From a virus (Duplodnaviria; Caudoviricetes): a stretch of 64,000 nt of DNA. The notes beneath the pieces are model-generated. The model searched no databases. It was not told where the DNA came from and was given only the letters and a program-made list of their open reading frames with translations. Below are positions 15,001 to 39,941 of this stretch, piece by piece (position 1 is the stretch's first letter; the number at the start of each line of letters is the position of its first letter). The translations under genes and the position numbers were made by a program. The stretch is taken from positions 21,940 through 85,939 of the IMG/VR virus record IMGVR_UViG_3300034059_000003. One strand, 5' to 3'.

Positions 15001-16613
15001 CTTTGTAATAAAAGATCATCAACCTCATCAAGTGAACTCATTAAATCATCGGTTGCATACCAATAATATAATCTTGTAAGAGCATCATTATTAATTGTAT
15101 TTAGATGAAGATCATCGGCATTTATCGTTGCAACCATTGCCTCATCATACAGAAATTTATCATTGACTGTATGCATAAACATACGATTGACGGCATCAAG
15201 ATCCACTTCAGTCTTACCATTTTTATTGTAATACGATTCAACATCTTTTTCAACTATAGATCCATCTGGTTGTGTCTCTTCTACTTTATTGACAAATTTC
15301 TTATATGGTTTGGTTACATGATCAACATACCATTTATCATAACCACTCATATTCCTTTTAAGATGATCATAAAGTTCTTCTTCTTTTTCTATCTCAGCTT
15401 TTTCTCCTAATCCTTCTCTATATCCTCCAATGCTACCAAATAAACCTCCAACTAAAGAACCAAGAACAATATTCTTTTGTCCTTCTGTTGTGAATAGATT
15501 ATCAACCCATTCTGAAGCAAGACCAAGAGTATAGTCATCAAGATCCTGACCATATGATTCTTTTTTCTTGTTATATGTTTGTAGTGCATACTGCATTCCT
15601 TCTTCCCAAGGACCTTCAGTACTCATCGCAAGACCAGCATCAGTTAATGATTTTTTGAATAGGTTTATATCTTCAGATGCAATTCTCCCGGACCTTACGC
15701 CGGCTCTTAAATCTTCCGCAGTCTTTCCAACCCGACCAAACATAAATCTACTCTGTATATAGTTTGGAACAAGAAGAACACCAAGATTACCATTGAATAC
15801 ATTCGCAGCGCCTTCAGAAACTTTTGATTTTACCTTATCCTGTGATGCCGGATCAAGATCAGTATATTGCATTCCATATTCATTAAATGCAAGATTATTC
15901 CGTTCTGTATCTTGGAAATCTTTTGCCTCAAAACCAGCCTCTCCAATAGAGTTTAATACTGTAGATCCATACACCTTTGCTTTTTGTACCATCTGTGCAG
16001 TTAAACCAAAAGCCTTTGAAGATGCCGACGCAAGGGCACCAACGCCAGCGCCAGTTATATATGCTGATCCAAGAAAAGCAAGAGCATCAAAACCATCATC
16101 AAACCAGAATCCAGGATCTTTCATCTGTTGAAGAAGATTGCCATTACGACCTTGCCATGTTCTATATATTGGAAATTTCTCTCTTAATCCTTCATCGGCT
16201 TTACTCATTGCATTAACAAAACCATTATCCCAAATGACAGATGGATCGGCTGTTTCTGGATCAGAGAGATAGTCAACACCAAATGATATAGCACCGCCAA
16301 TATGACCAATATTCTGACCAACCTTGGGAACTAAACTTGCCCCACGAGAAACAAGACCACTTGTGAATTTACCAAAGAAAGGTTGTGCTGCAGCGGACAT
16401 ACTCTGTTCATCCCATACTGGTTGACCTTGACCGACAAGTTTTTTATATGGAGTTCTCCATGGTTCAAAACGAAAATAACCGTCACCGGTTGTATCTTTC
16501 ATAATATCTGAATCTATTTTCGGTTGTTCCTTTACTGGAAGATTTGATGAATCAAGTTCTGGTGTAGTAAATGAATCTTCATCAAATCCAACCCAAGTTC
16601 TTTTATTTGCCAT
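3..16613 (-). CDS. Giant virion RNA polymerase/ejection polyprotein, partial (>=5537 aa; runs off window start)
   Basis: ATG at 16613 (MANKRTWVGFDEDSF...) overlaps the stop of the upstream cargo gene. The same frame reads as protein at every point I translated: 16600-15400, 12900-11200, 8940-8700, 5900, 4800, 1700, 850-360 and 60-3. The track reports no ORF ending in this frame, which implies no internal stop. Motifs: GLAG/TGKT, VIIDE, GDPSQ, YTALSRA, HEAFH, DGQGF, RIP...GSDFDVD, HEMIH, GTMD...DWK...QVMIY. Confidence 0.93.
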   Translation of the reverse strand, partial: MANKRTWVGFDEDSFTTPELDSSNLPVKEQPKIDSDIMKDTTGDGYFRFEPWRTPYKKLVGQGQPVWDEQSMSAAAQPFFGKFTSGLVSRGASLVPKVGQNIGHIGGAISFGVDYLSDPETADPSVIWDNGFVNAMSKADEGLREKFPIYRTWQGRNGNLLQQMKDPGFWFDDGFDALAFLGSAYITGAGVGALASASSKAFGLTAQMVQKAKVYGSTVLNSIGEAGFEAKDFQDTERNNLAFNEYGMQYTDLDPASQDKVKSKVSEGAANVFNGNLGVLLVPNYIQSRFMFGRVGKTAEDLRAGVRSGRIASEDINLFKKSLTDAGLAMSTEGPWEEGMQYALQTYNKKKESYGQDLDDYTLGLASEWVDNLFTTEGQKNIVLGSLVGGLFGSIGGYREGLGEKAEIEKEEELYDHLKRNMSGYDKWYVDHVTKPYKKFVNKVEETQPDGSIVEKDVESYYNKNGKTEVDLDAVNRMFMHTVNDKFLYDEAMVATINADDLHLNTINNDALTRLYYWYATDDLMSSLDEVDDLLLQRDLQIPEELAKLGYDKKFTKSDLTPIRKAFENARTQVSDAEDFSGDRTKTQFKQVAMKTLFAEEVKRNMYEEYLSNEKLSDKQKEDVKRLIADSKKLSDNLLNKKTREKLYDEFKLERDQYNNVLKNFEEVNKDSKATSNDKLKAQYDRDEFLYIEGPEDPFSPIYSQSVTNGTKTANVFGARYNYYFDRGKAAYKKAELNNTMEDAAKGKRNLSDIIGTIRSHLSDGIVYSAEEIDKVGNLISKRRESVDRASKQVPERQKRLNTNTEEVWETVDGFPTGNKIPNSNFNPKQRESDQVWLDNYIQKSQDQTDAENSLSEIKNMSEQSGQQFKTDKKQMSSRRKAYRKFQREFADTPVDKAKDLLLSYNGNKDVFDQVDDVDDILRKLEDRKKVYSLPGRKKLLTTSEFKGYIESIDEVLPKLKAIRNKAFENGESRKSLDKRTRLSYSGSLFNAIGISINREKKSYSVYNQDLFNAVSEIIGKTELDNILETAKSAFFNETDYSFDGIFIEKIISRVKDANNGVKRLSDLLKKIEFDKINNFIDVYVKWTKLEEKGITSGVSDDLKAYKKSPFRAFDRLIEIQIDRFRVQTEKISPIDRFFRNKDVFQLLDAVQNNVDLVYPNINKDDFSDLIKAHIEIMGLSRLKDRLTSKITIQEMIGLESAVIKEKKLSPNNQQHITLREAVVEMNSPIEKKEEKFRGWYYIKGLAGCLSGDVLLPFKTKNRVSGRINSVKYAYYKFNNIKVKGISGRPWDKIIPIETLSLLDGYIGYNKIIDIIYSGKKQTYKVTVDSGRNICVTIEHPFKVPKGTIGQSVDGFKKLSELKIGDIVFLRDLKKGTGRDLSKRLRRKIIYGIIYHPNKYTKIVNNKDYGRLPYCRLVVEAKMNNIGVNQFINELKTNSNSSSIYKFLDPKLIVHHKDENPINDDLDNLVIITKQEHDKLHGYNNITNMRFSKIIEEKIISIEKYKYEDTYDIIMQFPYHNYVANDFIVHNTGKTDLMANYLPDLLGISHESLIALSTHENALEVLKKSLPGVKNSMLVSNLTDEMLKDENNKLVIIDEVARLNAEELHTLAERIVSANETRAIPIRIYVLGDPSQVASLDDAFPAINSFRHEMSNIREFNPLTSVFRSGNSSVLHAQNSFLDYPGKIKSFLGTASADIGAPADGVHVSNIQQRLFDQLEVHKKNNNRSRVVVVSNPVLKRQYEKTGVPVMFYHEVASLSYDEVYIDINPVDFEFNRKYNEGMYTALSRARSYIFIKSYMDPDAWKYTIDEIKKENNESRNKEIAQEYTNRLAFELNILGDDMKGVKISTPQIVNIEKGDPSDIASQQSETDAREEEPLSDKNTPTDNATFVEVGSGNTEYHDVEYPSYYPIKPISQSWEEIKMAPVRTGSKVKYIKVWNANVKKYEVHIIGQHLNIDDTPLENDLWSVIGVLSEKELLSTDFGKTLLYKMSAAKTQDGKELSNRLSQGNTGILQIKDGPTILAEGVIQKAQPLSYKYSDDITSSGPGFLSSLISKVKQTFANENLEFSVKIYARNDDRLGNHTPGVPYLDIERKTMRAGKEEGAESQFIRLNARKIRNTDSILQPIIEFRDTVKKLESEGIGTWGDPKTNELIKRFKRNFDVIDDEIVPAKVNRYSYNTYLEERDERGFPILTKEQFDLLYDLSNTLIPAFYGPGRTKKEVIDEDAMWEYLGENKKTDPNTSYEFKEHPKSNGGYILMTNRKNEDEKEYVYDTGLIAGEGIVQKRMNVLARANNKLPFSISHKTNLFRNGKKRVVISSESKSLFAEETSTSEYINYIKTVWKDMQEEAKAIGVELPSYSSFIDKESKRLDDQENIAKIEQVLIDWGNAGSDIQGLSREELNITKEKYVKEPLKISDLNNLLSFDNAGVHKTLTLPLKMSGIYGVNELGKNINSNLEQLEDILGTKLEDIIRTRIQIKLDEPISKEDAKKDSIKKGFENTYDKIQEKIKNRKKRLMRATPGMDLGKELTLSEARSLLAKFIPSITTQGKDVIHFAEKIVIDEIAGDNAYGVFHDEVIWAMEKNGSTFEKIIRHEAFHKIFNEYITKNEQDLIVKSFKKQFPEYKDKGIIEIEEQLAIKFQDYQSKKLSRINEVLKRFFNWLASTFGFINLNLKNFDRFFETIESGYFITTKENSAGITRSMKNIINLYGNDNDDFQGALETYRNARAIIQQEFYDVYEKGFAGYPITRREVKDITIGNLKNDHLIIKDNFDNMIVQQDLAEGEILNIARELRYYGKAIENYDRIIEDLYPNWSLDEADEIVVNMDISTEEILVQYEEDDETDGGISQHTIESDEVNWEVKKQSMAVKDFLSNIPIDNNRFMNWREAYVRTLQLFEGLQPENDRFIDQLRKAWENLGKHHRTEFLLNKIIELHTIASGNIYGERGETLGNNMKFVTEDMFVISDEELVNVYGEAGAMQNGATVDKRRSNESTREFIIRIAKTNNVSEEEIIGHFKKFQAIDSYKSLVNLFNNQKQKNLYIIEKTHTSGGTYAVGYIPGSYIGPHKSIGSLLNENIRNYFPDKRSLEKFVKDWLRPNIEKYKSNPYEFIKVFLKEMGMGSIANSIPNTNVQQIYYDVEGFFTRPGSGAIYRIGEVEEITDEDTGEVMKVPMTIGLLLDEEGKMSGNLSKLMSVSSAYVRATSVRDVKGKRKYIWSPTSWANNILFNIANNKILKTGNLTLSLPQYLTTEYFKKNIFLSGKNKIHDIVDSDGIKFKDYTGKITGIKQSKENEGDFILRGFVAGFLDRIRYSKSGHERYFQFVYPNERENVFGAEVNVLTHAEIRVAISEAIRQFNSEPVLSGIKQNNTGRFINFRLLEKALKGRDIVAKPLSETEIDKYSQVVESLLSEEAKKLAERVIRNRVPLDKEIFSNKNLEKIVSPDKVDLDSFRNSKHYGRSESRSMKPDGSYNWTMEQILPLTHSFIANNYVNSFFLNQIILGENNQFVNEEDVMRRFSLATAPGSKGLVNKTFGMKEKARFLVIEDQIKGFKDIEARLDAVLKTDEEKAKLPILMEKFKENINIWDGQGFMTPERFEELRNGGFATEFSLHKILKPVVYSVSEEGVARGIKYSSIVLSDELIEEFPSLGILLANMRRNNADEAVFRSAIKIGIPESAAPFESVLSENYAADPSMLFDINNDQYRIQMDPKSKISGKTSQPSQLIYLASVLSQNTKRADRIYYHLSELSRLGNELFFSKFNDERSIKTNITSLLRGKGNENTHDILSSEISINFPSIVDKVIIALSSHLKDSIVEFDFPGSKLVLQSEFGVRKYGLPVSDGPKNKLKYIRTDTGRMVAECIIPEGLLPKEYEDSIKQALAEGKNAEDYFDLPDLLGFRIPSSDIHSAVAIKVVGFYKTPNINVIIAPDLLVGLHGSDFDVDSLFIIKRAKNKRGEYIGYKEKKGRMTFIRNTKDFEDIYEEIGFRKNAVIHELLDLVSNQENIESMLSPIPLKEIMDQKTRVLNPNYRPRENKLDLSNYNDQIDTHSTIFGAAVATGVFGNAAKTLAYMMRTGENQSNPKLRDENNIVRIRDSKGELRIYDELTLFDNTGQSLFVSIDGFINAAIDNIKMLALPTLNINMRTIHAFISLRTLGINLTDTVDILQQPAILDYANGRSFDMIKKQIVEKLSGYEAVESEINPQNISTGIRSGNSIDDYDNAISEDGKKNNKAAKALMFQMHIIETFQNMTNVGNSIGKLAQWLKIARTLPVTKNDIDKIKNVATELFGVIEEDGTLPAFGVSSFPFDISEFFLKSKHILQIYKGVRQFDELLTSSIKKYYPEFEDIVNQAYRQLGKFGLNEVEGKSVIRDELINYLMSNEIFSGEYKIEKDVSFEYTVGDEKRILTGPKAVNQIFIGKITALKNYINKERTEDGDPISNTFIERLGQSYNSVTKTYELTFEGGSNMDQMDILDARNGFFELNKYEVSWNKKTGKYTVKKNTEPKSNSDYSDLQREFVSYGIMNWGLKFGIMNYSTILPENLYYSVDNLLNKLMDKFTGDKYEENWSKIQDDFMVQLVLNNSEMIPDIFRTLGKPIKKGSFVNEYGQTLPFYGGKTNEYFYDRSYSNPDQKEMPRFIVSSYAGVKRIYLRLNNAIDPIVYYQVVDRSSTIKFYNTSDEVLENGFDINESFKNNGIYNVRVADFNTKEFEYYGSGLKEGDIVSLTQFHDVTRVNKQYCKIIKKLDNSYIIRPVKEAITKHSYDKFTMATEHVIIDLKTRMLKHGTPFRNDNKGRGRILYGKHSTNEAREFKSKINNEEFGGIQVLRERLWYDGIQIYVDVNALHSFFLKANESNIKSYFETNNISDTDQEVIYGSKQFLKNIKEDNITEEIESVQKLYSEEESISTLIDNMILRSKSKRRINLLTTLKDRIVKQGMTIKFGELSGIGRYGEYSVDGSIVLDLVNLYIHNGPIDIDQVDKILFHEMIHGITVTGMLENESFSKDILKLINEYFDVDQTTGQLIVKPFAKKTVDKFLSENGYPQDINSISSMNLLGMKNQFEFIAEILSNDEFAKMIDSLKRSQEERSLLKRILDKIMEFISLAKEFSNDLLQIILNSPHTPSFTKEGILYRSQSGNYYKDTKLGYEVEVEVGIRNDSDTTRKNILDLADNIKENAKKIKVEKLPDGTEGQFYIVEGMAKKIRRITNYAGGFISMFTNKKIDPNITFGQHLADVKWGDRTHDHKLLTEQGNMEDYDQYKDRMELNSKLGQIKGNILHLFLKRTANRLFHLGEKDEDILKEINNVASRGEGKTPIEHYSWIEDPEVLRKVFKHAGVNVLSKDIPEALRDIIYLPEVTIWSDLLGFGGTMDALIGHADGRWSIKDWKSGNAFGIKTTMEPMMYGLQDTYISDNQRERAKLQVMIYAFLLKLQYPDIKFRDLMTVWIPNQFLGEKEDMDRFVEVSSYLNMIKAFLNDREALKNAGIDENVYQKIVEKSPKIFSISEYTDKANDSLFESLVNSKFSPEEEYRKRVDEIRLILGRLKERRQIRI
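360..850 (-). other. RecB-like PD-(D/E)xK nuclease domain within the giant ORF
   Basis: In-frame KGNILH (~810-830), PEV, GFGGTMDAL, IKDWKSG (DWK at 495-503) and LQVMIYA (~380-400). This is the order of RecB-family nuclease motifs. Confidence 0.75.
1400..1800 (-). other. Zincin-like metalloprotease motif 2 within the giant ORF
   Basis: ILFHEMIHG (HEMIH at 1683-1697), followed downstream by NQFEFIAEILSNDEF, which offers a candidate third-ligand Glu. Confidence 0.7.
3900..6300 (-). other. crAss-type (QDE-1-related) two-barrel RNA polymerase core within the giant ORF; boundaries approximate
   Basis: WDGQGFMTPE (D at 5871-5873), then LKPVVY, then GFRIPSSDIHSAVAIKVVGFY...APDLLVGLHGSDFDVDSLF with the catalytic DxDxD at 4809-4823. 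Confidence 0.9.
8700..8940 (-). other. Zincin-like metalloprotease motif 1 within the giant ORF
   Basis: AYGVFHDEVIW...IIRHEAFHKIF (HEAFH at 8823-8837), followed by IEEQLAIKFQDY. Confidence 0.7.
11230..12900 (-). other. Superfamily-1 (RecD/UvrD-like) helicase domain within the giant ORF, interrupted by an intein
   Basis: Splicing restores Walker A GLAG|TGKT. Walker B LVIIDE (~11817-11835), motif III YVLGDPSQ, motif IV LTSVFRS and motif VI MYTALSRA (~11245-11270) follow in order. Confidence 0.85.
12021..12869 (-). mobile_element. Intein (283 aa) with HNH homing endonuclease, inserted in the helicase Walker A motif
   Basis: Starts CLSGDVLL, has block B VTIEHPF and HNH motif IVHHKDENPINDDLDNLVIITKQEHDKLH, and ends HNYVANDFIVHN followed by Thr(+1). 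It is visibly more AT-rich than its flanks. Confidence 0.92.
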
Positions 16614-18924
16614 TTGCAGCAGTATTATAATCTTCATTTAATAATTTAAGATCCTGCGTTATATCCTGTCCTTTCTTTTTCTTCATTTCAAGAAATGCTC
16701 TTGCTGCCATATACCGCATATGTAGATCATCAATATCACTTGAATAAGAACCAAGTGGAGCTGTCATATATCCTTGTGGATTATTCTTTGAATCAAATGG
16801 TTTTTTGATAGGACTCTCACCTTCCATTTCCCTTGGATTACCTTGGAAAACATTTAATTCAAGTTGTTCTGTCCTTGGATTCCTTCTTACACTCATCCAT
16901 GTATCATTACGGTTAGGACCCATTTTACCTTCAATATTATTCCAACGATCAACTACTTGAAGTTGTTGACCAGGACCAATATTTCTTACTGCGAAAAGAT
17001 CACCCTGACCTGCTCTATTTGGAAGATTATAAGAAAATGCATTATTACTAAACCTTTGTGGTTCTACAAGTTCATTTGGACCTTCAATATAGTATTGTTT
17101 ATCTCCTATTGTTACAGATAACATTCCCGGACCATATTGACTTGTTCTTGGATCTACCATTCCATAAACAAAGAATGCTTCATCCTTCTTAGCAATTGAT
17201 TTCTTTTCATCTTTATCAAATTCATGATTTGGATTTTCTGGATCAACCCATCTGCCACCAATTAATGCAGAACTAAGGCCACCTTCTCCTGTAAATCTTC
17301 CTTGTGTATCCATTGTAAGACCACCAAGTTTTTCAGATACATAAGCCTGGTCTTCAGGATCGAAAGCAATAACCTGGCCAAAACCAACAGTTTTACTTTG
17401 TTCTTTTTCGAATTTTTTTAGATTCGATTTTAACCACATGTTTTCTTTTGGTGTAAAATCCTTAGATCCTTTAATTAATAATTCTGTTTCACTTTTAAAT
17501 GGATTATCCGGATCATTGAAACCATAAGCAAGGGCTGCATTTATTGTTTTTGACTCTGAAAAATCATTATCAAAAGCATTCTCATTAATATTTAACTTAT
17601 CTAATGTCTTATCAATTGTCTTTAATACATCTTCTTTTTCTTCTTCAAGTGCTTTCTTTTCCCATTTACCAGTTACTTCTACTTCTTTCTTCGCAAAGTA
17701 TTCTTCAAACATTTTCTTTGTACCATAAGCATCTTCGACTAATCTGGTTGTTAATAATGCATTACGCATCATTTTTGAGTCACTACCAATTCCAAGAGGC
17801 GTCTTAGCATCAATCTTTCTCTCTTTCCCATCTTCACCAATTACATTTACAGAATGAAGTCCAAGGAGTGCTTCGGGATCATCTTTTACTTTTGCATAAT
17901 ATTCAAGATTATCCCCATAATTTAACAACTTGGTATCTTTAAATACTTTCAATGTTGACATTTTAGAAAGATCTCCTTCATTTGTTCCATCATCAAAAAA
18001 GTAACCAGGATTCATTGGTTCAAGAGGAAGATCAAATGTCATATCTATTTGTTGAATTTGACTTTTCTTTTTTCCTGAAGTTTTGGTTTGTCCAGGAAGA
18101 TATTCATAATTGTCTTTGAAACTTCTTGTTTTATATTTCTCTTCTTCACGAGAAATAATTTGATTAATATAATCTTCATTCCACTTATCAGGAGAAGTTG
18201 TTGCTTTTAGATAACGCGATCCAGGAGTTTCAGTATTGAGTATCTGTTGTACAAGTTGTTTTCTGTTTGCTGCAAGTTTCTCAGGACTTCTCTGTTCATA
18301 GGTGGTCGTTTTCATTGCAGCAACATCAACACCATTTGGACCAGGCACCCAAATTGTTGATGGTTCTCCACTACTTGTTTCTGTTTCTACCTGTCTATAT
18401 GATTCATTTACTTCATCAAGTATATTAGCATATTGTGTTGGTCTTTGATATTGGCTAAATCCTTGTCCAGAAATTAACTGTCTTACATCGCCGGTTTCAG
18501 GATTGATATTTGGATCAGCTTCTCTACGATATAGTGGATCTGAAATCCATCTATCATATAATGATGCTGCCTCACGATCTTGTTGAATAGTTTTTACATC
18601 TGGATCTGACCGGAACTCAGCATTTATTTTTGATAACTCTCTTAATGCAGGTATTGAATATGATGTTTCACCATAATCTTGCATCCATTTATTTACCTTT
18701 TGTTTATACTTATCTGTAACAAGTGGAGTCATTCCTTTTGTCTGATATCCTGGAATAAGACTACCGGTGAGTGCATTTGTTTCTTCTGCAAGTGCAATTG
18801 CCTTTTCGCCTCTCTGTAATTTTTCCTGTTCAAAGTTTATCATTTCACTATATGGACTTTTATCTTCCACAAATTGTGAAGTATAAACAGGAAGTGCTGG
18901 TGTATAAAATCTATTGATACCCAT
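16603..18924 (-). CDS. Cargo/ejection protein (773 aa)
   Basis: Lies between the muzzle/cargo genes and the vRNAP gene, as in crAss-like phages. Hydrophilic, helical-looking sequence; no enzyme motif seen. Confidence 0.6.
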   Translation of the reverse strand: MGINRFYTPALPVYTSQFVEDKSPYSEMINFEQEKLQRGEKAIALAEETNALTGSLIPGYQTKGMTPLVTDKYKQKVNKWMQDYGETSYSIPALRELSKINAEFRSDPDVKTIQQDREAASLYDRWISDPLYRREADPNINPETGDVRQLISGQGFSQYQRPTQYANILDEVNESYRQVETETSSGEPSTIWVPGPNGVDVAAMKTTTYEQRSPEKLAANRKQLVQQILNTETPGSRYLKATTSPDKWNEDYINQIISREEEKYKTRSFKDNYEYLPGQTKTSGKKKSQIQQIDMTFDLPLEPMNPGYFFDDGTNEGDLSKMSTLKVFKDTKLLNYGDNLEYYAKVKDDPEALLGLHSVNVIGEDGKERKIDAKTPLGIGSDSKMMRNALLTTRLVEDAYGTKKMFEEYFAKKEVEVTGKWEKKALEEEKEDVLKTIDKTLDKLNINENAFDNDFSESKTINAALAYGFNDPDNPFKSETELLIKGSKDFTPKENMWLKSNLKKFEKEQSKTVGFGQVIAFDPEDQAYVSEKLGGLTMDTQGRFTGEGGLSSALIGGRWVDPENPNHEFDKDEKKSIAKKDEAFFVYGMVDPRTSQYGPGMLSVTIGDKQYYIEGPNELVEPQRFSNNAFSYNLPNRAGQGDLFAVRNIGPGQQLQVVDRWNNIEGKMGPNRNDTWMSVRRNPRTEQLELNVFQGNPREMEGESPIKKPFDSKNNPQGYMTAPLGSYSSDIDDLHMRYMAARAFLEMKKKKGQDITQDLKLLNEDYNTAANGK

Positions 18925-20511: not shown

Positions 20512-20799
20512 TTATTGATCAATTTTATTCATTACAGACTCTGCAGGAGTCATATACAAAGTTACAAGATCATGAAGAACTATCATATGGTGATTTTCAT
20601 CATGAACAAACCTTAATTCAATTTTTATATAGGTATCTCTTATCCTGGCTTTATCGAGAAGATTTCTTCCTATGGTAAATCTCCATGTACGAAATAGTCT
20701 TCTACAGTTCGTAACAGTTAGAACAACAGATCCTGTGTCTTGATAATCATTTGTTACCCTTACACTGGTTATAGTTTTTGTATGTACTTGTGTTTCCAT
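20512..20799 (-). CDS. Separated C-terminal segment of the muzzle protein (95 aa)
   Basis: VRVTNDYQDTG...RRLFRTWRFTIGR...RIRDTYIKIEL...LHDLVTLY matches the C-terminal pattern I recall for crAss muzzle proteins. It starts 1 nt after the muzzle stop (TAA T ATG). Confidence 0.65.
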   Translation of the reverse strand: METQVHTKTITSVRVTNDYQDTGSVVLTVTNCRRLFRTWRFTIGRNLLDKARIRDTYIKIELRFVHDENHHMIVLHDLVTLYMTPAESVMNKIDQ

Positions 20800-20800
20800 A

Positions 20801-23800
20801 TTAAATATCTCTTACACATTTTACTGACATACCATTTCTTTTATCATAATTATTTACACCAAGACTTGCAATAGTATTATACATCACTCTCATAACTGCC
20901 TGTGATGTATCATATTGTGTTGCTGTCCAAAATGCTGCAATAGTCTTACTTAAGAAATTAAAATTACCTACATAATCACGAACACCGGCAGGAATAGCAG
21001 TGAATCCAGTTTCATTTGTGGCTCCTATATTTGGAGATGCCCAATGTTCAGTTCCATTTTCTTTTAACTTTCCTCCAGTAACTGAATTACCTCCAAGGTA
21101 TGTTGCTAAATTTTCCCAATCTGTTTTTGTAGCAACTCTCCATCCTGTTTCATGAACACCATTACGTTTAAAATATACAAGACCTCTTGCATTATTAACT
21201 GCATACCAATTGTAGATTGCACCATAAAGTTCTCTATTATCAATATCATTGTTAGGCCAACAATATGCACCTGATCTATCTGCAGAAAATTCAGTTCCCA
21301 TTTCTATATATGGTATCGATACTCCATCTGCATATTTTGTTGTTTTTAGATTTGATACTATCCACTCCTGGTTATTTATTATAACGGTGTAATATACATT
21401 ATTATCAAGATCAGAAAGATCTATTAAAACTGAAAGTTCATTGGTTGTGAAGACAACTTCATTACCATAAGTTGTACCACCGGATGTTGTTGCATATGCA
21501 CGAACATAATAAATAGTACCAGGAACAAGATTAATAAGATTTGCAGAGAATGTTCCAAGACCGGATCCATTAACTGTATGAGAATTTGATATAGTTGGAT
21601 TTGAAGATGTATTCCAGCAAATACCTCTGGCAGTAACAATACCACCTCCACCGGAAACAATATTGCCACCAGAAACCGCAGTTGTTGTTGTTATACTTGA
21701 TATCTCTGTTGTTAATACATCTGCAGCAACAACATTATTTGTTGAGAAAGCAATCTCATTACCATATGCTGTTCCTGTTGAATTGGTACAATAAGCACGA
21801 ATATGATAATTTGTATCTTCAATCAGACCATCAAGAACTTTTGTATATGATTTAAGAAGACCACTTGTTCGACTATATAAAAGAGTTACAGGATAAAGTT
21901 TATTTGCTATTGTGGGTGTCGCACCTGTATTACAACATATACCAAATGCTGAAGGAGTTTCACCACCAAAATTTGAAACCTCAATACCGCTGATAGCACT
22001 GACATCAGTTATTGATGAAACAATAGTAGTTATCAATGTTGCAAGCGAAACAATTGTAAAAGTGCGTTCATTACCATATGCTGTTCCTGCACTGTTTGTT
22101 GCATATGCTCTTACATAATAAGTTTGGCCTGCTTGTAATCCTGAAATATTGCTTATAAATGTCGTAATTTCAGACCCAGCAGAAAGTTTACTACTATTTT
22201 CTATAGTTGGGTTTGTACTTAATCCATAACAAACACCCTTATCAATTATTGAATCCCCACCGTCAAAAGTGATAGTCCCTCCACTTCTTGCTGAAGTTCC
22301 TGTTATATTATCAATTACTCTTGTAGTTAATACTGGAATTGTTACACTATACTGAGTTGTCTCAAGATCTGTTTTATAAACTTCAGATGTTATTTCAAGA
22401 TTTGTAAATAGTGAAGTTAAATTTGGTTTTGGATTAACAACAACTGTAACATATGAATCATAATATTTACCAAAGAAGTGCCCAGGATATCCTTTATCTT
22501 CTCTGTAAACAAATTTATTGTATGCAGAAAAGACTTTATTATCAACTTTAAGATAAAAATATGCCTGTGTATCTACAAAACAAATAAATGAGTCTTCAAC
22601 CTCATATAATAATAAAGCAATACCATATTCAGAATTTTCCTTTATAATAAACCATGGTTCTTTATACATTGGATTGTGAAACATAAAGAATCCCTTCCCA
22701 TTCTTAGATGGACTTATTACATTATCATAATCTGCAAAGTCATTATCAATAGATTGTAAATAAGAATTAACACCACGGATTGTTGATACATCCTCTATAC
22801 TATTTAAGAATCGATTTATCGTCTTGCGTTTATGATCATACCAATAAATCCCACTGAAACTTTCGGTAATAGAGAAACGAGTACTTAATCCAAGATTTGT
22901 TGAAATGATATCAAATCTTGAAAGTATATCTCCTTCTCCGAGTTTTGTACTTCTTCCTTGTTGATCAGTTACAACAGATCTATCAAGAACGGACAAAGCA
23001 CCAATAGCATCAGTTTGCCAATATAAAAGAAAGTTCTTCCAGGAAAATAATTTATTGATTGGACCAAAACTATTATCAACTTGTATATTTTCGTTTGATG
23101 CCCATTGTGTCCATGGATCTATTGTTTCTTTGCCAACTTTTGCATTAGATGCCATTACAAGAGTATCATTTACTTCATCCGGATCATAATCTAATGGAGC
23201 AGGATAAAACTTTCTTGCATCAGCAAGTTTTATATATGCAGTATTCTCAAGATACAAATCAGTCCATCCCGGGGAATAAGTATTTCCTGCAGCGGTGAAT
23301 TCTGAATTGTTCTTTTCTCTTAAATAATAAGCTGTGTCTAACTGATTATATATTCTATGCCAACAATCATCAAGAGTATAAGCAAGATTAACACTTGTCT
23401 CTACAGGAAACATTTCAACAGCACCAAACCAATGTTGATTCTCTTCATAGTATTTATTGTAATAAGAAACAAGATGATCAGCATAACCAATATATGTATC
23501 TCCATAATTGGCATAAGCGGTGGCGGATCCAGAAGAAACAGAAACCATTTTACCTGCAGAAATATATTCATTTCTGGTTCTATCTTCATATGTGTGTCCA
23601 CCATATTGTGTACCCCATAAATTAGTTCGATAATTCAAAAGGAAATACTCTGTAGATGGTAAATTATTTGTATCAAAAAAAGCACTCATTTGTACAAGTA
23701 GACATGTACCAAGGTTTCCGACATATGTATTAACACCAGAATATTTCACCATGTTGGCTAAGAAATTATATCTACCATATGCGGTAAGTGTACCAAAATT

Positions 23801-25900
23801 TTTTTCTGTTGTTATATTATCTGGCGTATTGGTTGTTTCCTCTAATCTTGCAGAAATAACACTTACATCACGTGGGTTAATAGTAGTAAGATCATAACAT
23901 TTTAATGTTTCAAAATTAGAACTTGCGTCTATAACTCCTTTATATGTTCCAATAATTTCAACATAATCTCCGGATGTCTGAACAAACTTTTTATAATATG
24001 AAATGTCAGGAGAAAAAATAGCAATATGTCTTGCTGCATATTCAGGTCCTTCTTTTGATGATGAATTATAGTCTCCAACTGTAGATTTTGCAGGATTTAT
24101 AAAAGCTGTTTCAGCATATTTAGTTGTAAGCAAATTTGCCTTTCCCTGAAGTTTTACGGTTTTATCTTCGTCTGTTCTTTTAACATAAACAATTTGAACA
24201 TACTTTACATCTGAAGGAAGATTACTTAATGTGAAATTTATTTGTAGTGGTCTTGATCTTACATATCCAAGATTCACCGTCTGACAGAATGGAGAATTTC
24301 CATATGGTGATTCAAATTCAAACTCATTATTTGGCATTCTAATATCACCTATCCATTTTACTGGACTTATACGTCCTTTATCATCATAACCAATGATTCC
24401 AAATCTATAAATCTCATCACGACAAAATCCCCTTAATTGTTGATTGTATAATGGACTTTCAGAACCTCCATAATAACCAGGATCAGGATATGTTTGTCTT
24501 GATATAAAAAAAGTATTATCAGGACTGTCATAATCTATAGCTCTATTCACATCACCAACTGCAGTAGGGGTTATAGTATATTTAACATTTGGACCTTCTC
24601 CACCTATTGTTACACAATCTGTCTGATATAAATATGAACTGGAAAAAAGTTGTTTCTTATCATATTGAATATTATTCCGACAAATAGCATCAATATCAAG
24701 TGGAAGGTTTGCCATTCCAATTACGGTACCAATTGAAATACCTGATGAATTATAATGAATCCATAAATTAGGATTATCTCTATGATTATACCAATATTCT
24801 CCATTTGACTCATCAAGTCTGCAGTCTTCCCATGTATGATATCTCCACCTGTATGCTCTTGAATCATAAGAAAAATCAAACTCAGACTGTCTTGTATTTG
24901 CAGCAAAAAGAATATTGTTTTTAGTTGCAATTGTTTTACATCTTAACGGATTATTTATAAGTAGATATTCTGCAAGAGTATATGTCCCAAGATCATAATC
25001 ACCGTCATCAGTAACATAGATTGTTGAACTAACAGGTTTAACATCAACAATACTTACGGTTGGTTCTCCATTTAATGTACTATAATGAATAGCAACAACT
25101 TCAATTCTGTCATAGTTTGTGTCTACACCTGTTATTTTAATTTGAATTCCTTTACCTGATGATAATCCTTCACCAGAAGAATCGAGTGCGTCAGAACCCT
25201 TAAAAGTGGTTGTATTTGCTAAAGATTGTGATGATTGACTTAAAGGAAACATTTGACTTGCTGGAGAGAAATTACTCGCAGCTCCATATAATTTATATAA
25301 TCGATATGAATATTGAACCATTCCTACTGGAATGTTACCATTGACAACCTTAGAAAATTCTGGTATTACCATTGTAACTTTCTGAACAATATCAAACTCA
25401 TCCGGAGTTCTTGTTGATAGTAATGGATCCACGAGATTACAAAAGCGCAAATTATTATAATCATCAGTCCAATAAACTTTATGGATAGAATCACTTTCAT
25501 AAAACTCAACTATGTCTTCAATAGGATGTTGCATTGATAGATTGAGCAATCCATTATAAAGAAGTGTGAAATTTGACATTATCACAGTATCGTCATGAAG
25601 TGGGACACTCCATAGTCTGCCATATGATGCAGTAGGGTTTGCTGAGTCATCATCAGTAGTAATTATCAATGTCCTATCACGAAGTTTTTTTGCACCAATT
25701 ATTCTGTCATTTGGATATCCAAGTGTTTCAAAACTTCCGGCTAACGGTATATTACCAAGAACATCTGTAAGTGCATCATTACGAGAAGGGTTATTACTTG
25801 TTCTTCTCATATTACGGCAATCAAACATTGCATCACTTCCTATTTTATTAAGAGAAGTGTCACGATCAAGTTTCTTATATGTATTACGAAATGCTTGCAT
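20801..25900 (-). CDS. Tail muzzle/stabilisation protein (P22 gp10-like) with three appended FN3-like modules and a FISUMP domain (1699 aa)
   Basis: Muzzle-type core (DEIYRFGIIGYD; WASNENIQVDNSFGPINKL; GEGDILSRFDIIST; YWYDHKRK). Three repeats ending YxVRAYATNxxGTxYGNExxF at ~22340-21430, then a Fib_succ_major-like domain (YGAIYNWYAV...ATNETGFTAIPAG...GMSVKCVRD). Confidence 0.85.
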   Translation of the reverse strand: MQAFRNTYKKLDRDTSLNKIGSDAMFDCRNMRRTSNNPSRNDALTDVLGNIPLAGSFETLGYPNDRIIGAKKLRDRTLIITTDDDSANPTASYGRLWSVPLHDDTVIMSNFTLLYNGLLNLSMQHPIEDIVEFYESDSIHKVYWTDDYNNLRFCNLVDPLLSTRTPDEFDIVQKVTMVIPEFSKVVNGNIPVGMVQYSYRLYKLYGAASNFSPASQMFPLSQSSQSLANTTTFKGSDALDSSGEGLSSGKGIQIKITGVDTNYDRIEVVAIHYSTLNGEPTVSIVDVKPVSSTIYVTDDGDYDLGTYTLAEYLLINNPLRCKTIATKNNILFAANTRQSEFDFSYDSRAYRWRYHTWEDCRLDESNGEYWYNHRDNPNLWIHYNSSGISIGTVIGMANLPLDIDAICRNNIQYDKKQLFSSSYLYQTDCVTIGGEGPNVKYTITPTAVGDVNRAIDYDSPDNTFFISRQTYPDPGYYGGSESPLYNQQLRGFCRDEIYRFGIIGYDDKGRISPVKWIGDIRMPNNEFEFESPYGNSPFCQTVNLGYVRSRPLQINFTLSNLPSDVKYVQIVYVKRTDEDKTVKLQGKANLLTTKYAETAFINPAKSTVGDYNSSSKEGPEYAARHIAIFSPDISYYKKFVQTSGDYVEIIGTYKGVIDASSNFETLKCYDLTTINPRDVSVISARLEETTNTPDNITTEKNFGTLTAYGRYNFLANMVKYSGVNTYVGNLGTCLLVQMSAFFDTNNLPSTEYFLLNYRTNLWGTQYGGHTYEDRTRNEYISAGKMVSVSSGSATAYANYGDTYIGYADHLVSYYNKYYEENQHWFGAVEMFPVETSVNLAYTLDDCWHRIYNQLDTAYYLREKNNSEFTAAGNTYSPGWTDLYLENTAYIKLADARKFYPAPLDYDPDEVNDTLVMASNAKVGKETIDPWTQWASNENIQVDNSFGPINKLFSWKNFLLYWQTDAIGALSVLDRSVVTDQQGRSTKLGEGDILSRFDIISTNLGLSTRFSITESFSGIYWYDHKRKTINRFLNSIEDVSTIRGVNSYLQSIDNDFADYDNVISPSKNGKGFFMFHNPMYKEPWFIIKENSEYGIALLLYEVEDSFICFVDTQAYFYLKVDNKVFSAYNKFVYREDKGYPGHFFGKYYDSYVTVVVNPKPNLTSLFTNLEITSEVYKTDLETTQYSVTIPVLTTRVIDNITGTSARSGGTITFDGGDSIIDKGVCYGLSTNPTIENSSKLSAGSEITTFISNISGLQAGQTYYVRAYATNSAGTAYGNERTFTIVSLATLITTIVSSITDVSAISGIEVSNFGGETPSAFGICCNTGATPTIANKLYPVTLLYSRTSGLLKSYTKVLDGLIEDTNYHIRAYCTNSTGTAYGNEIAFSTNNVVAADVLTTEISSITTTTAVSGGNIVSGGGGIVTARGICWNTSSNPTISNSHTVNGSGLGTFSANLINLVPGTIYYVRAYATTSGGTTYGNEVVFTTNELSVLIDLSDLDNNVYYTVIINNQEWIVSNLKTTKYADGVSIPYIEMGTEFSADRSGAYCWPNNDIDNRELYGAIYNWYAVNNARGLVYFKRNGVHETGWRVATKTDWENLATYLGGNSVTGGKLKENGTEHWASPNIGATNETGFTAIPAGVRDYVGNFNFLSKTIAAFWTATQYDTSQAVMRVMYNTIASLGVNNYDKRNGMSVKCVRDI

Positions 25901-26682
25901 TATAATAAATCATTATTAAAACCAAGATTAAGATCTTCTCTGTTTCCAAGAAAAGCATATGAATAATCGTGAGAAGAGATAACAGGTAATAATCTTGTCC
26001 AATGTCTTGTCCAGATTTCTCTTCTTTCCGGAGATAATATTCTCATTGCATTTTGGGCACTTGGTAAGTAAAATAACCATTCTCTTTCACTATCATTATA
26101 AACCTCTCTACTGATCTTTCCAAGTCTCCAAAGTTTATGATCCTGTTTGAATGTTATAAATGTTCTGACTGCCTCCTTTACTCTTTCAATATCAGGAATC
26201 ATTGGGAAACCTTCTTCATCGACAAGAAATGCTCTGTATGCAAGTTCAAGAGTTGCAGTTTTTTCTGATGTCTCTATGTAATTGTTCTTGAGAATATATG
26301 TCAATCGACCAGTATCATTCTCAAGATCTTCATTATTAACTACTACTTGATTATGAAAAGAATCACTGCTGTTCTCATAAACTTCTTTTGAATCGAAATC
26401 TCTTACACCAGCAGGTAATAATTCAATAAAATCAATTGGTAATGTTCCACGGTGATCTGTAACAACTACATTAGGAGTTAATAATGAATTGCCGGTAACT
26501 TTTTCAATGAAGATACCTGGGGCATTAATCTTTGCAAGAGCTTTCCCGGCCCACGAAATTGCATCATTCCAATCAAGTTCATGAGCATATCCTTCATCTT
26601 GATAGACTTCCTCAAGAATGGATAATACTGATATGTATTTCTCGGCCATACATTTAGAATTATTCAACCAAAAGCATACCAC
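25900..26682 (-). CDS. Tail ring/tube protein (260 aa)
   Basis: Directly upstream of the muzzle. The pattern LELAYRAFLVDEEGFPMIPD...TFKQDHKLW...W.FYLPSA resembles crAss ring proteins. Confidence 0.65.
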   Translation of the reverse strand: MVCFWLNNSKCMAEKYISVLSILEEVYQDEGYAHELDWNDAISWAGKALAKINAPGIFIEKVTGNSLLTPNVVVTDHRGTLPIDFIELLPAGVRDFDSKEVYENSSDSFHNQVVVNNEDLENDTGRLTYILKNNYIETSEKTATLELAYRAFLVDEEGFPMIPDIERVKEAVRTFITFKQDHKLWRLGKISREVYNDSEREWLFYLPSAQNAMRILSPERREIWTRHWTRLLPVISSHDYSYAFLGNREDLNLGFNNDLL

Positions 26683-35614: not shown

Positions 35615-36186
35615 TAGTATATTATTTTAATTCGTACATCATCAATTGCATCAGAAGAATACACGGTAATTACATAAATACCACCGACAAGACTTATTAT
35701 TGGATCACCAAGATTCTTAGTAATCACAATACCATCAGAATCAATGAACTCAATATTATATGGTTCATATGTCAATGTTGTAGTAATTATGTTATTACCA
35801 ACAACAAGATCTTGTGTTATTGTATATTTTGCCATGTCGGAAACAGTGTTAGTTGTTGGAGTAGTAACAATAGGAGTTGTATTTGAACTCCTTTCATAGT
35901 TATATCTGTCCAGTTCGCGGTAAGCATCGTCAATTATACTTTGGATATCATTAACAGTAAGTACATTATAGTATTCTGTTACAGCAACATCACCTATTAC
36001 CTGATAACGATAAAGTATCTCAATATACTTTGAAATTAAGATGTTTCTTTTATTAAGGTTGGCAAGAAATAACTGACCTCCTGTATGATAAGCAAAAGAC
36101 TTTGACAGGTCTTCAGCAAGACGACTATGCAATAATTGAATTGTTGCTATATCACTATTCAATATATTCTGATCCAGAACTTGCAT
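35614..36186 (-). CDS. Tail hub/collar-like structural protein (190 aa)
   Basis: Helical N-terminal part and a short beta-rich C-terminal part. Assigned by position in the tail module. Confidence 0.45.
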   Translation of the reverse strand: MQVLDQNILNSDIATIQLLHSRLAEDLSKSFAYHTGGQLFLANLNKRNILISKYIEILYRYQVIGDVAVTEYYNVLTVNDIQSIIDDAYRELDRYNYERSSNTTPIVTTPTTNTVSDMAKYTITQDLVVGNNIITTTLTYEPYNIEFIDSDGIVITKNLGDPIISLVGGIYVITVYSSDAIDDVRIKIIY

Positions 36187-38588: not shown

Positions 38589-39941
38589 TTATGTATGAAA
38601 CACATTTGTCCAATCATTATCGTATGCACAAATAGCCTGAGTCGATAATCCTAACCAAGCAGTTCCATCTATTACTTCAGGAATTAAAACACCACTTCTT
38701 AAATGTTTGCATGCATAATTCTGAACCATCCATACTTGACCACCTATTAGAACCGTGTCATAAATATTACCATCATAATCAGAAACCTTTTCTCCTTCAG
38801 TATATCCAGTTAAATTGTCTCTTATTAACCTTATCGCACACCCTTGTTTTTTAATAATAGATCTTGCTAATATTGCTTCTCCGGTAGCAACAAATTTATT
38901 CGCATATGCATTTACTCCATATGATAAACTATCTTCTGTATTTGTCCACAGTTCTCCAACATTCTTTAATTGTTGAAAATTAGCAACTAATAAACCGTTT
39001 CTTATACCATTTCCTACTGCTGTAAATCCTGAACTATTTGTTGCACCCTCATCGTCACTAATCCAATGTATTATTCCAGTTTCTCTGCAGGCTTTATTTA
39101 CTTCTATCAAAGTACTCCAATTATTAAATAATGTTTGGTATTCGGATGTAGAAGGAATATGCCATCCTATTGGTGGTGTTAATGCATTATTCGCAGCGTA
39201 CCAATTATATAAAAGACCATAATTTATTACATTACTATAACCAGGTAAAAATACATAATCCCAATTATTGTCATAAGCACAACATCCTGGTGTAATTAAT
39301 TCAAACCATGAATTAGCATTTTGTACTTCTGGAATTGGAACTCCATTTGAAAAATGTGTTACAGCAAGATTTTGTTGAAGCCAAACCTGCGTACCAATCT
39401 TTACAGTAGTATAAATATTTCCATCATAATCTCTAACTACCATTCCGGGATACCATTGAGACGTATCTATTAATAGACATCTTATCGACATACCCCATTT
39501 TTTGTCATCGTTTGCAGGTGATCCTCCAACTACTGTATACGCATATTCATGTATAGAATCATATCTTATTTGTTGAACATAAGTTAGGTTATTATGAAAA
39601 TATCCAGAATTTTTTAATCCATCAAAATATGGAGATACATTATAAATACTATATCTCCAACCACCGCCAAATATTGTAAGTTTTGAACTGTTTGTTGCGC
39701 CAGTATTAGGATAATTCCAATGGATATATCCAACTTCTTTACATTTACCTCCTGCAATTGATATTCCACCAAGATAATTCCATAATGTAGTCCAATCGGC
39801 TAAAAGTGGAACTTTCCATCCTATAGGAGCAATTCCATTTGAACTATTGGCTGCATACCAATTATAAAGTAAACCATATGAAATATTAGATACTGGTCTT
39901 ATAGAATTAAGTAATGATCTGAAGATAGAAGAACTTCTCAT
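38589..39941 (-). CDS. FISUMP (Fib_succ_major, C-type-lectin-like) tandem protein, circularly permuted (450 aa)
   Basis: YGLLYNWYAA...GWxxP...ATNSS...G(M/C)xIR occurs twice, each time followed by DYDGNIYxTVxIGxQVW...CAYDNxW. Confidence 0.85.
   Translation of the reverse strand: MRSSSIFRSLLNSIRPVSNISYGLLYNWYAANSSNGIAPIGWKVPLLADWTTLWNYLGGISIAGGKCKEVGYIHWNYPNTGATNSSKLTIFGGGWRYSIYNVSPYFDGLKNSGYFHNNLTYVQQIRYDSIHEYAYTVVGGSPANDDKKWGMSIRCLLIDTSQWYPGMVVRDYDGNIYTTVKIGTQVWLQQNLAVTHFSNGVPIPEVQNANSWFELITPGCCAYDNNWDYVFLPGYSNVINYGLLYNWYAANNALTPPIGWHIPSTSEYQTLFNNWSTLIEVNKACRETGIIHWISDDEGATNSSGFTAVGNGIRNGLLVANFQQLKNVGELWTNTEDSLSYGVNAYANKFVATGEAILARSIIKKQGCAIRLIRDNLTGYTEGEKVSDYDGNIYDTVLIGGQVWMVQNYACKHLRSGVLIPEVIDGTAWLGLSTQAICAYDNDWTNVFHT

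What the first reader, a model, noticed from the sequence alone, without database searches (positions are those of the whole stretch)
20512..22370. Muzzle protein split by a captured FN3x3-FISUMP adhesin
The muzzle core stops at ...LFTNLEITSEVYKTDLETTQ, continues into three FN3-like modules and a FISUMP lectin domain, and terminates. The expected muzzle C-terminus (NDYQDTG...FRTWR...RIR...LHDL) appears as a separate 95-aa ORF starting 1 nt later. Inference: a host surface-protein tail, complete with its stop codon, was inserted into a muzzle loop. That would give a two-chain muzzle displaying lectin domains at the tail tip, a receptor-binding design I do not know from crAss phages.
Basis: partly seen in the sequence, partly recalled or inferred. 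Interest (0 to 1): 0.75.

Follow-up and report, generated by a model that had tools for sequence, protein, structure and literature searches.

The report
Split crass-phage muzzle carrying lectin arms
In this environmental crAss-like phage the conserved tail "muzzle" protein is encoded as two genes, because a stalk-plus-lectin cassette ending in its own stop codon sits inside a hairpin of the muzzle's last domain; at least five diverged relatives share the arrangement, so it is a real two-chain design and not an assembly error.

Summary
On the minus strand, a 1699-aa ORF (25900..20801) holds a crassvirus muzzle body, three FN3-like repeats and a complete Fib_succ_major (FISUMP) domain. It ends in TAA. 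One nucleotide later a 95-aa ORF (20799..20512) begins.

Pfam's 83-position muzzle C-terminal model is cut between the two ORFs, at positions 4-43 and 46-83. Unsplit relatives run straight across the junction.

The split is not an error. Five relatives fetched with DNA (53-60% identical cores) have the same cassette at the same turn, followed by a 95-96-aa ORF. Their gaps of 1, 2 or 9 nt give three different reading frames. The small ORF is better conserved than the muzzle core.

An AF2 model of an unsplit relative puts the break at a tight β-hairpin turn in the nozzle-specific C-terminal domain. This domain corresponds to T7's "platform" and to the crass "ring-joining" domain at the barrel end of the muzzle. 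It is not at the tail tip.

The FISUMP domain models as a C-type-lectin-like fold.

Best reading: a two-chain muzzle with six built-in adhesin arms. The split was needed because a rod-shaped insert cannot return to a hairpin.

Capture of the cassette from a host is plausible but not shown.

Verdict: new variant of a known kind, interest about 0.6.

The parts
22343..25900 (-). Chain A, muzzle body (residues 1 to about 1186). Homologous to crAss001 gp44. Ends with the long beta-strand ...LFTNLEITSEVYKT, the first arm of the interrupted hairpin.
   Evidence: PF25731 at 1.2e-145 and PF25729 positions 4-43. PDB 7qok_A gp44 at 2e-22. Collinear with unsplit P0011, P0012 and P0015.
21410..22342 (-). 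Chain A, short linker plus three ~100-aa FN3-like repeats (residues about 1187-1497). Proposed stalk.
   Evidence: Internal repeats are 36-50% identical. Repeat profile A3 hits FN3 domains of titin, neogenin and fibronectin at E 9e-5 to 2e-3. Pfam fn3 is below its cut-off.
20804..21400 (-). Chain A, C-terminal Fib_succ_major (FISUMP) domain (residues 1501-1699). Modelled as a C-type-lectin-like fold. Proposed ligand-binding head.
   Evidence: PF09603 1-187/187, 108.7 bits. AF2 pLDDT 95.6. VIA-align neighbours are CLec/FGE-fold proteins: CarF Z 8.9, TvpA 8.8, Lcl-C 7.9, InvE 7.6, Mtd 6.2.
20800..20803 (-). Junction: TAA stop of chain A (20803..20801) plus one spacer nucleotide (20800) before the ATG of chain B.
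   Evidence: Relatives have TAA plus 1, 2 or 9 nt. No RNA structure at the junction (z 0.66).
20512..20799 (-). Chain B, 95 aa. Second arm of the hairpin plus the remaining strands and terminal helix of the ring-joining (platform-like) domain. Carries the family's most conserved motifs (NDYQDTG, RRLxRTWR, RxRDTY, LHDL).
   Evidence: PF25729 positions 46-83. E 3e-27 to the C-terminus of unsplit P0015. 56-63% identical to the stand-alone ORFs of the five split relatives, which are 66-80% identical to one another; dN/dS about 0.13-0.40.
25900..26682 (-). Upstream neighbour: tail ring protein 1. Same gene order as in all relatives.
   Evidence: PF24228 at 9.6e-38. Synteny in L008, L011, L013, L016 and L021.

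Best explanation
The muzzle of this crAss-like phage (the hexameric gp44-type protein that closes the tail) is made from two separately translated polypeptides.

Chain A is the whole muzzle body up to the first strand of a beta-hairpin in the C-terminal ring-joining (T7 'platform'-like) domain. From the hairpin turn it continues outward as a stalk of three FN3-like modules and ends in a C-type-lectin-like FISUMP head with a free C-terminus.

Chain B (95 aa) starts 1 nt after chain A's stop, probably by termination-reinitiation. It supplies the second hairpin strand and the rest of the ring-joining domain. It would complement chain A non-covalently, so that the muzzle can still dock on the tail barrel.

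The result would be six adhesin arms anchored at the muzzle-barrel junction. These arms most likely bind a host-surface ligand.

The split is the price of the stalk. A rod-like array has its ends far apart and cannot re-enter a tight turn, whereas compact domains can be inserted in frame, as seen in other crassviruses.

Shown here: the anatomy, the conservation of the split, selection on chain B, the fold assignments, and the position of the break in the model.

Inferred: separate translation, assembly in trans, outward display and ligand binding.
For: 1. Collinearity. P0001 residues ~1001-1177 match P0011 1019-1197, and P0002 residues 4-95 match P0011 1201-1292. Pfam MUZ_C is cut at positions 43/46.

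2. Conservation. Seven other muzzles end after an FN3(n)-FISUMP cassette (P0009/P0010 with extra FN3-like domains after the FISUMP) and lack the C-terminus. All five fetched with DNA have a 95-96-aa ORF after TAA plus 1 nt (L015, L016), 2 nt (L008, L011) or 9 nt (L013). P0008 is indexed in 59 blocks of the assembly collection. Split muzzles plus one unsplit one (P0011) form one clade with SH-aLRT 100.

3. Selection. Chain B is 56-80% identical between pairs, against 53-61% for the core. Its dN is 0.14-0.38 and dN/dS about 0.13-0.40.

4. Structure. AF2 of unsplit P0015 residues 880-1263 gives pLDDT 89. It matches gp44 1013-1371 at Z 24.6. Generic propellers align only to model residues 12-247. 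P22 gp10, T7 gp12 and SU10 nozzles align through to the end. The break falls at the 2-residue turn after strand 274-287. T7's C-terminal platform is a jelly roll of long strands that binds the adaptor (PMC6702177).

5. Head. The FISUMP model has a CLec-like fold. The phage has a second FISUMP protein next to a collagen-repeat fibre gene.

6. In-frame contrast. P0034, P0041 and P0044 carry FISUMP domains without a stalk, in frame, before MUZ_C.
Against: There is no direct evidence that either chain is in a virion or that they associate. No co-fold could be run.

Whether the hairpin turn faces outward was not determined, because no coordinates were available.

The ligand of FISUMP domains is unknown, and a shared fold does not show function.

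Chain B alone scores below the Pfam cut-off (19 vs 27 bits).

The window's own reads could not be checked.
Confidence: 0.75

Rival explanations
1. Sequencing or assembly error: a 1-nt homopolymer error (TTT in ATTTAAT) creates an artificial stop, and the real protein is one chain with an internal FN3-FISUMP insert.
For: One T fewer would fuse the frames. The window comes from a single metagenomic virus record.
Against: Five independently assembled, diverged relatives show the same split. Their gaps of 1, 2 and 9 nt put chain B in three different frames relative to chain A, and all have a TAA directly after the last domain. None of the seven cassette-bearing relatives found within 934-2974 aa contains the C-terminal piece.
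Confidence: 0.03
2. Recoding: programmed frameshift, stop-codon read-through or stop reassignment joins the two ORFs into one polypeptide.
For: Some crAss-like phages reassign TAG or TGA (PMC12386605). The gap is tiny.
Against: The stop is TAA in all six loci. The required shift would be +1, +2 or 0 depending on the phage. There is no RNA structure at the junction (z 0.66) and no tRNA gene in the window. Other genes in the window are long and uninterrupted under table 11. A conserved ATG opens every chain B.
Confidence: 0.05
3. Chain B is a decaying remnant. The muzzle works without its old C-terminus, with the cassette replacing it.
For: Chain B alone is below Pfam's gathering score.
Against: Chain B keeps its length (95-96 aa), its start codon and all family motifs across relatives whose cores are only 53-61% identical. 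It has lower dN than the core. It holds most of the strands of a domain conserved from T7 and P22 to crAss001.
Confidence: 0.05
4. Both chains are made, but the FN3-FISUMP arm is not a host-receptor binder. It could bind environmental polymers or particles, or stabilise the tail.
For: The FISUMP ligand is unknown. Ig/FN3-like decorations on phages are often accessory adhesins. The phage also has separate fibre-like genes.
Against: CLec-fold heads serve as receptor binders in phage BPP-1 Mtd and in adhesins such as invasin, InvE and Lcl. A second FISUMP protein lies beside the collagen-repeat fibre gene.
Confidence: 0.12

Closest known systems
crAss001 muzzle protein gp44 (PDB 7qok/7qol; Pfam PF25731 + PF25729)
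   Same: Same family, with the same gene position after ring protein 1. The C-terminal region of a close unsplit relative superposes on gp44 1013-1371 (Z 24.6).
   Different: gp44 and nearly all homologues are single chains. Length variation reported so far is by in-frame insertions in the crass and IG2 domains (PMC10172136). Here the C-terminal domain is cut into two genes and carries a ~510-aa stalk-and-lectin arm.
Genes-in-pieces in phages, where a gene is cut in two by inserted DNA and the two products reassemble (e.g. split nrdA or DNA polymerase in T4-like phages; recalled from memory, not checked here)
   Same: One ancestral ORF is now two adjacent ORFs collinear with unsplit homologues, and both are conserved.
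   Different: In those cases the insert is a free-standing homing endonuclease gene. Here the insert is fused in frame to the upstream half and becomes a functional extension of it. No endonuclease is present.
Split nozzle of Pseudomonas podophage A1002 (PMC13730344)
   Same: A podovirus nozzle function is distributed over two proteins.
   Different: A1002 uses two different proteins (nozzle-base gp42 and nozzle-rope gp39). It is not one domain cut at a hairpin by a captured cassette.
In-frame FISUMP-bearing muzzles of other crass-like phages (P0034, P0041, P0044)
   Same: Same domain family added to the same protein, near the same region.
   Different: The insertion lies between MUZ and MUZ_C, has no FN3 stalk, has no stop, and gives a single chain.
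C-type-lectin-fold receptor binders (Bordetella phage BPP-1 Mtd; invasin/InvE; Legionella Lcl C-terminal domain)
   Same: The head domain model shares the fold (Z 6.2-7.9).
   Different: There is no diversity-generating retroelement here: no reverse transcriptase and no template repeat. Sequence identity to these proteins is only about 9-12%.

Membership tests
Crassvirus muzzle protein (PF25731/PF25729, gp44-type) | Match to crAss_MUZ above the curated cut-off | tested here: met
   487.8 bits against a cut-off of 27. phrog_28748 at 7e-110.
Crassvirus muzzle protein (PF25731/PF25729, gp44-type) | Complete C-terminal domain (crAss_MUZ_C) in the same polypeptide | tested here: not met
   Profile positions 4-43 are in chain A and 46-83 in chain B. 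The domain is complete only across the two ORFs.
Crassvirus muzzle protein (PF25731/PF25729, gp44-type) | Gene position directly after ring protein 1 | tested here: met
   PF24228 protein at 25900..26682. The order is the same in the relatives.
Crassvirus muzzle protein (PF25731/PF25729, gp44-type) | gp44-like 3-D structure of the C-terminal propeller and ring-joining part | tested here: met
   Tested on the unsplit relative P0015, whose C-terminus is 60% identical to chain B. Z 24.6 and TMq 0.72 to 7qol/7qok.
Crassvirus muzzle protein (PF25731/PF25729, gp44-type) | Hexamer closing the tail of the virion | not testable with these tools
   Needs virions or a multimer model.
Fib_succ_major / FISUMP (PF09603, TIGR02145) | Full-length match above the cut-off | tested here: met
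   1-187/187, 108.7 bits against 33.9. 201 homologues at E<=1e-5.
C-type-lectin-like fold | Structural similarity of the head to CLec/FGE-fold proteins | tested here: met
   The model has pLDDT 95.6. 49 chains score Z>=5, and almost all those listed are CLec-fold, the top ones at Z 8.9-7.6. Foldseek alone gave only weak hits.
Fibronectin type III | Pfam fn3 above the gathering score | tested here: inconclusive
   21.5 bits against a cut-off of 25. 14 of 19 repeats hit fn3 weakly. The repeat profile hits FN3 domains in the PDB at E 9e-5.
Split gene with reassembling products (genes in pieces) | Two adjacent ORFs collinear with an unsplit homologue, both under purifying selection | tested here: met
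Split gene with reassembling products (genes in pieces) | Physical association of the two products | not testable with these tools
   No multimer prediction was available and there is no experiment.
Programmed ribosomal frameshift or read-through | Conserved shift direction and stimulatory signal | tested here: not met
   Gaps of 1, 2 and 9 nt. No RNA structure at the junction.
Diversity-generating retroelement target | Reverse transcriptase and a template repeat matching the 3' end of the lectin-domain gene | tested here: not met
   No RVT_1 in the 85.9-kb record. No template-like repeat. The record is about 88% complete.

The most novel reading that the evidence does not exclude
A clade of environmental crassviruses has turned the muzzle itself into a receptor-binding organelle. 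The 3' end of a cellular FN3-lectin surface-protein gene, with its stop codon, was captured into a hairpin of the ring-joining domain. This created an obligatory two-chain jelly roll and a crown of six adhesin arms at the muzzle-barrel junction. The free distal end can then be lengthened (3 to about 9 FN3 repeats) or rebuilt (one or two FISUMP domains, extra FN3 domains) without touching the muzzle fold.
Probability: 0.45. Interest if true: 0.7.

Novelty: new variant of a known kind. Interest (0 to 1): 0.6.

Why it matters
The muzzle is the most conserved tail protein of the Crassvirales and is thought to be the gatekeeper for DNA and cargo ejection.

A natural, evolutionarily stable cut through its barrel-docking domain has three consequences:
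- It shows where the fold tolerates a break.
- It gives a ready-made case of non-covalent domain complementation in a virion.
- It identifies a site where receptor-binding modules are grafted directly on the muzzle. This bears on how uncultured crass-like phages find hosts.

It also shows one way phage structural genes gain rod-shaped appendages: accept a stop codon and restart.

For annotation, the 95-aa ORFs are currently unnamed proteins with no precomputed Pfam hit. One such muzzle is filed under a TM6 bacterium in NCBI.

Tried and rejected
- Assembly error and recoding were rejected from the junctions of the relatives, the RNA fold and the tRNA scan.
- A diversity-generating retroelement acting on the C-terminal lectin domain was rejected. 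There is no reverse transcriptase and no template repeat. Only distant paralogy to the 450-aa FISUMP gene was found.
- A target-site duplication was considered because chain A has LETTQ and chain B starts METQ. There is no DNA repeat and the resemblance is absent in relatives.
- Recent intragenomic duplication of the FISUMP head from the phage's other FISUMP gene was rejected: identity is only 29-34%.
- Nucleotide search of the phage collection found nothing for this region. IMG/VR gave only ~30%-identical muzzles.
- Sequence search of the PDB with chain B alone, or with the FISUMP domain, gave no meaningful hit.
- Two trees were left unresolved. The position of unsplit P0011 relative to the split clade is a polytomy. 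The origin of the FISUMP heads is also unresolved. I therefore make no claim about re-fusion or head swapping.
- Other short stand-alone C-terminal ORFs were checked. L019 contains a scaffold gap and L020 is cut by the contig end. Neither is informative.
- The DNA of P0011 could not be fetched. The window's own record is withheld from the look-ups.
Full report
**What is in the sequence**

All genes here lie on the minus strand. ORF 25900..20801 encodes 1699 aa (P0001) and ends ...VKCVRDI, followed by TAA. After one nucleotide (20800), ATG at 20799 opens a 95-aa ORF (P0002) that ends at 20512.

Pfam finds the following in P0001:
- crAss_MUZ at 1.2e-145.
- crAss_MUZ_C profile positions 4-43 at residues 1140-1184.
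- Weak FN3/Ig-like hits between residues 1250 and 1490.
- A complete Fib_succ_major (FISUMP) domain, 1-187/187, at residues 1506-1697.

P0002 matches the other half of crAss_MUZ_C, positions 46-83, at residues 7-46. PHROGs gives the same picture with phrog_28748.

**The small ORF is the muzzle C-terminus**

A search of 1.84 billion representative proteins with P0002 gave 279 hits. These are overwhelmingly the last ~80-95 residues of 1200-1600-aa muzzle proteins. One example is P0015, residues 1169-1261 of 1263, at E 3e-27 and 60% identity. In cultured or named crassviruses it aligns to the extreme C-terminus of phi14:2 g071 and of the cr116_1 'stabilization protein'.

In unsplit close relatives the two window ORFs are collinear and abut. 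P0001 residues ~1001-1177 match P0011 1019-1197, and P0002 residues 4-95 match P0011 1201-1292 of 1293. A multiple alignment places the break between ...SEVYKT-D and ETQVHTKTI.... This corresponds to about residue 1290 of the 1371-aa crAss001 gp44. No residues are missing. The cassette sits in a 2-4-residue turn.

**The split is real and old**

A homology search found seven other muzzles (49-54% identical) that carry FN3-like repeats and FISUMP after the same ...SEVY(K/L)(T/A)DL junction. They lack the C-terminal piece (P0004-P0010).

I fetched DNA for five of them. In every case a 95-96-aa ORF follows the stop:
- TAA-t-ATG in the window, L015 and L016.
- TAA-tc/tt-ATG in L008 and L011.
- TAA-aaaattatt-ATG in L013.

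Chain B is thus in frame +1, +2 or 0 relative to chain A. This excludes both a shared sequencing artefact and a conserved frameshift or read-through. P0008 is indexed in 59 blocks of the assembly collection.

Further points against recoding:
- The stop is TAA everywhere.
- There is no tRNA gene in the window.
- There is no RNA structure at the junction (z 0.66).

The small ORFs share 56-80% identity, against 53-61% for the first 1160 residues of the same muzzles. Their dN is 0.14-0.38 and dN/dS about 0.13-0.40. Chain B is therefore under at least as much constraint as the body.

In a tree of muzzle cores, the eight split proteins and one unsplit protein (P0011) form a clade with SH-aLRT 100. 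The branching inside that clade is unresolved. A single insertion is compatible with the tree but not proven.

**Where the break lies in the structure**

I modelled residues 880-1263 of the unsplit relative P0015 with a 55-sequence alignment. The result has pLDDT 89 and pTM 0.77.

The model superposes on crAss001 gp44 residues 1013-1371 (Z 24.6, rmsd 3.8 Å over 336 residues). It also superposes on podovirus nozzle and hub proteins through to their C-termini: P22 gp10 to residue 472, T7 gp12 to 794, and SU10. Generic β-propellers (WD40 proteins, BamB) align only to model residues ~12-247.

Model residues ~248-384 are therefore a nozzle-specific C-terminal domain built of long strands. In T7 this is the 'platform'. 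It is a jelly roll formed by the C-terminus plus three N-terminal strands, and it binds the adaptor (PMC6702177). In crAss001 it is the 'ring-joining domain', which is similar to that of T7 (PMC10172136).

The break maps to model residues 288-289. This is the two-residue turn between the 14-residue strand 274-287 and the following strands.

[quoted passage not shown] It follows that the cassette is anchored at the barrel end of the muzzle, not at the tip. I could not obtain coordinates, so the outward orientation of the turn is inferred. The basis is that a 510-aa arm has to go somewhere. In addition, neighbouring loops accept in-frame domains in other crassviruses:
- FISUMP before MUZ_C in P0034, P0041 and P0044.
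- An extra ~80-110 residues after about profile position 60 in P0036, P0039 and P0055. In P0036 these weakly resemble an endosialidase β-barrel.

**The cassette**

The three ~100-aa repeats are 36-50% identical to each other. As a profile they hit FN3 domains of titin, neogenin and fibronectin at E 9e-5 to 2e-3 over most of the domain. Pfam fn3 stays below its cut-off.

The FISUMP domain was modelled with 75 homologues and gave pLDDT 95.6. An all-against-representatives structural search returned almost only C-type-lectin-like/FGE-fold proteins:
- CarF, Z 8.9.
- Treponema TvpA, Z 8.8.
- PvdO, Z 8.7.
- Legionella Lcl C-terminal domain, Z 7.9.
- PorK, Z 7.7.
- Yersinia InvE, Z 7.6.
- Bdellovibrio Bd2740 C-terminal domain, Z 7.0.
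- Bordetella phage Mtd, Z 6.2.
- Dozens of animal C-type-lectin-like domains.

Foldseek alone was weak. In the model the first and last strands of this domain are residues 5-8 and 195-198. In C-type-lectin-like domains these terminal strands pair, which is established knowledge of the fold. Such a domain can be inserted in frame. A three-FN3 rod cannot bring its ends together.

This gives a simple rationale. The stalk-bearing cassette coexists with a stop and restart, while the stalk-less FISUMP inserts of P0034, P0041 and P0044 are in frame. This rationale is inference.

**Variation among relatives**

From the repeat coordinates and the Pfam scan:
- The stalk has three repeats in the window, P0006 and P0009.
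- It has roughly nine repeats in P0004, P0005, P0007 and P0008.
- P0006 has two FISUMP domains.
- P0009 and P0010 add FN3-like domains after the FISUMP.

**Origin**

Chain A ends two residues after the FISUMP profile end. Cellular-type proteins that combine the same repeats and FISUMP domains with T9SS sorting domains are 40-47% identical over the repeats. Examples are P0014, with PF18962, and a Pontibacter protein, P0027.

This fits capture of the 3' end of a surface-protein gene together with its stop codon. A FISUMP tree is unresolved, and an in-frame insertion followed by a later nonsense mutation cannot be excluded.

The head is not a recent copy of the phage's other FISUMP gene (450 aa, 38589..39941, next to a collagen-repeat protein). 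Identity between them is only 29-34%.

There is no diversity-generating retroelement.

**Mechanism proposed**

The proposed sequence of events is:
1. Chain A is translated.
2. Ribosomes terminate at TAA and restart 1-9 nt downstream on chain B. This is inferred from the conserved tight spacing.
3. Chain B's strands insert beside chain A's last core strand, and probably beside its N-terminal strands as in T7, to complete the ring-joining domain.
4. Six AB pairs form the muzzle and dock on the barrel.
5. Six FN3-lectin arms project from the junction and bind a surface ligand of the host.

The host is presumably in the Fibrobacterota-Chlorobiota-Bacteroidota group, where FISUMP proteins occur (PMC11661182).

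**Novelty**

Full-text searches returned no description of a split muzzle or of FISUMP on crassvirus muzzles. The crAss001 paper mentions only length variation by insertions in the crass and IG2 domains.

The components are known: muzzle, FN3, a CLec-fold head, and the genes-in-pieces idea. Their combination and the site are new. I rate it a new variant of a known kind.

Noticed in passing
window 38589-39941 (-) and 39945-41789 (-): A second FISUMP protein (450 aa, two to three Fib_succ_major domains) lies directly downstream of a 614-aa protein with collagen triple-helix repeats. It is only 29-34% identical to the muzzle's FISUMP head.
   Followed up: partly
window 36155-38536 (-): A 793-aa protein inside the structural block combines GT2, TPR repeats and a GT29 (sialyltransferase-like) domain.
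   Followed up: no
window 3-16637 (-): One open frame of at least 5545 aa runs off the window edge, where crAss001 has several separate large genes including RNA-polymerase subunits (gp47, gp49, gp50). Its content was not examined.
   Followed up: no
L018:1-929: A 1.3-kb contig from another crass-like phage shows a muzzle that stops at the same hairpin after a short acidic tail. An 11-nt gap and a 91-aa C-terminal ORF (P0159) follow, with no inserted domains. It is a single short contig, so it may be an error. If real, it is a split without a cassette.
   Followed up: partly
P0034, P0041, P0044; P0036, P0039, P0055: Other crass-like muzzles carry in-frame additions in neighbouring loops of the C-terminal region. 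P0034, P0041 and P0044 have FISUMP domains between MUZ and MUZ_C. P0036, P0039 and P0055 have an extra ~80-110 residues after about MUZ_C position 60; in P0036 these weakly resemble an endosialidase beta-barrel.
   Followed up: partly
P0008 / L008-L010: The 2291-aa split muzzle P0008 is filed in NCBI as a hypothetical protein of a candidate division TM6 bacterium MAG. It lies on ~97-kb crass-like phage contigs indexed in 59 blocks of the assembly collection, so it is probably a mis-binned phage.
   Followed up: no
window 25898-25902: The muzzle ATG overlaps the stop of ring protein 1 by one base. The gene caller's version of the protein (P0003, 1669 aa) starts 30 residues later, but the Pfam alignment begins at residue 11 of the longer form.
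   Followed up: no
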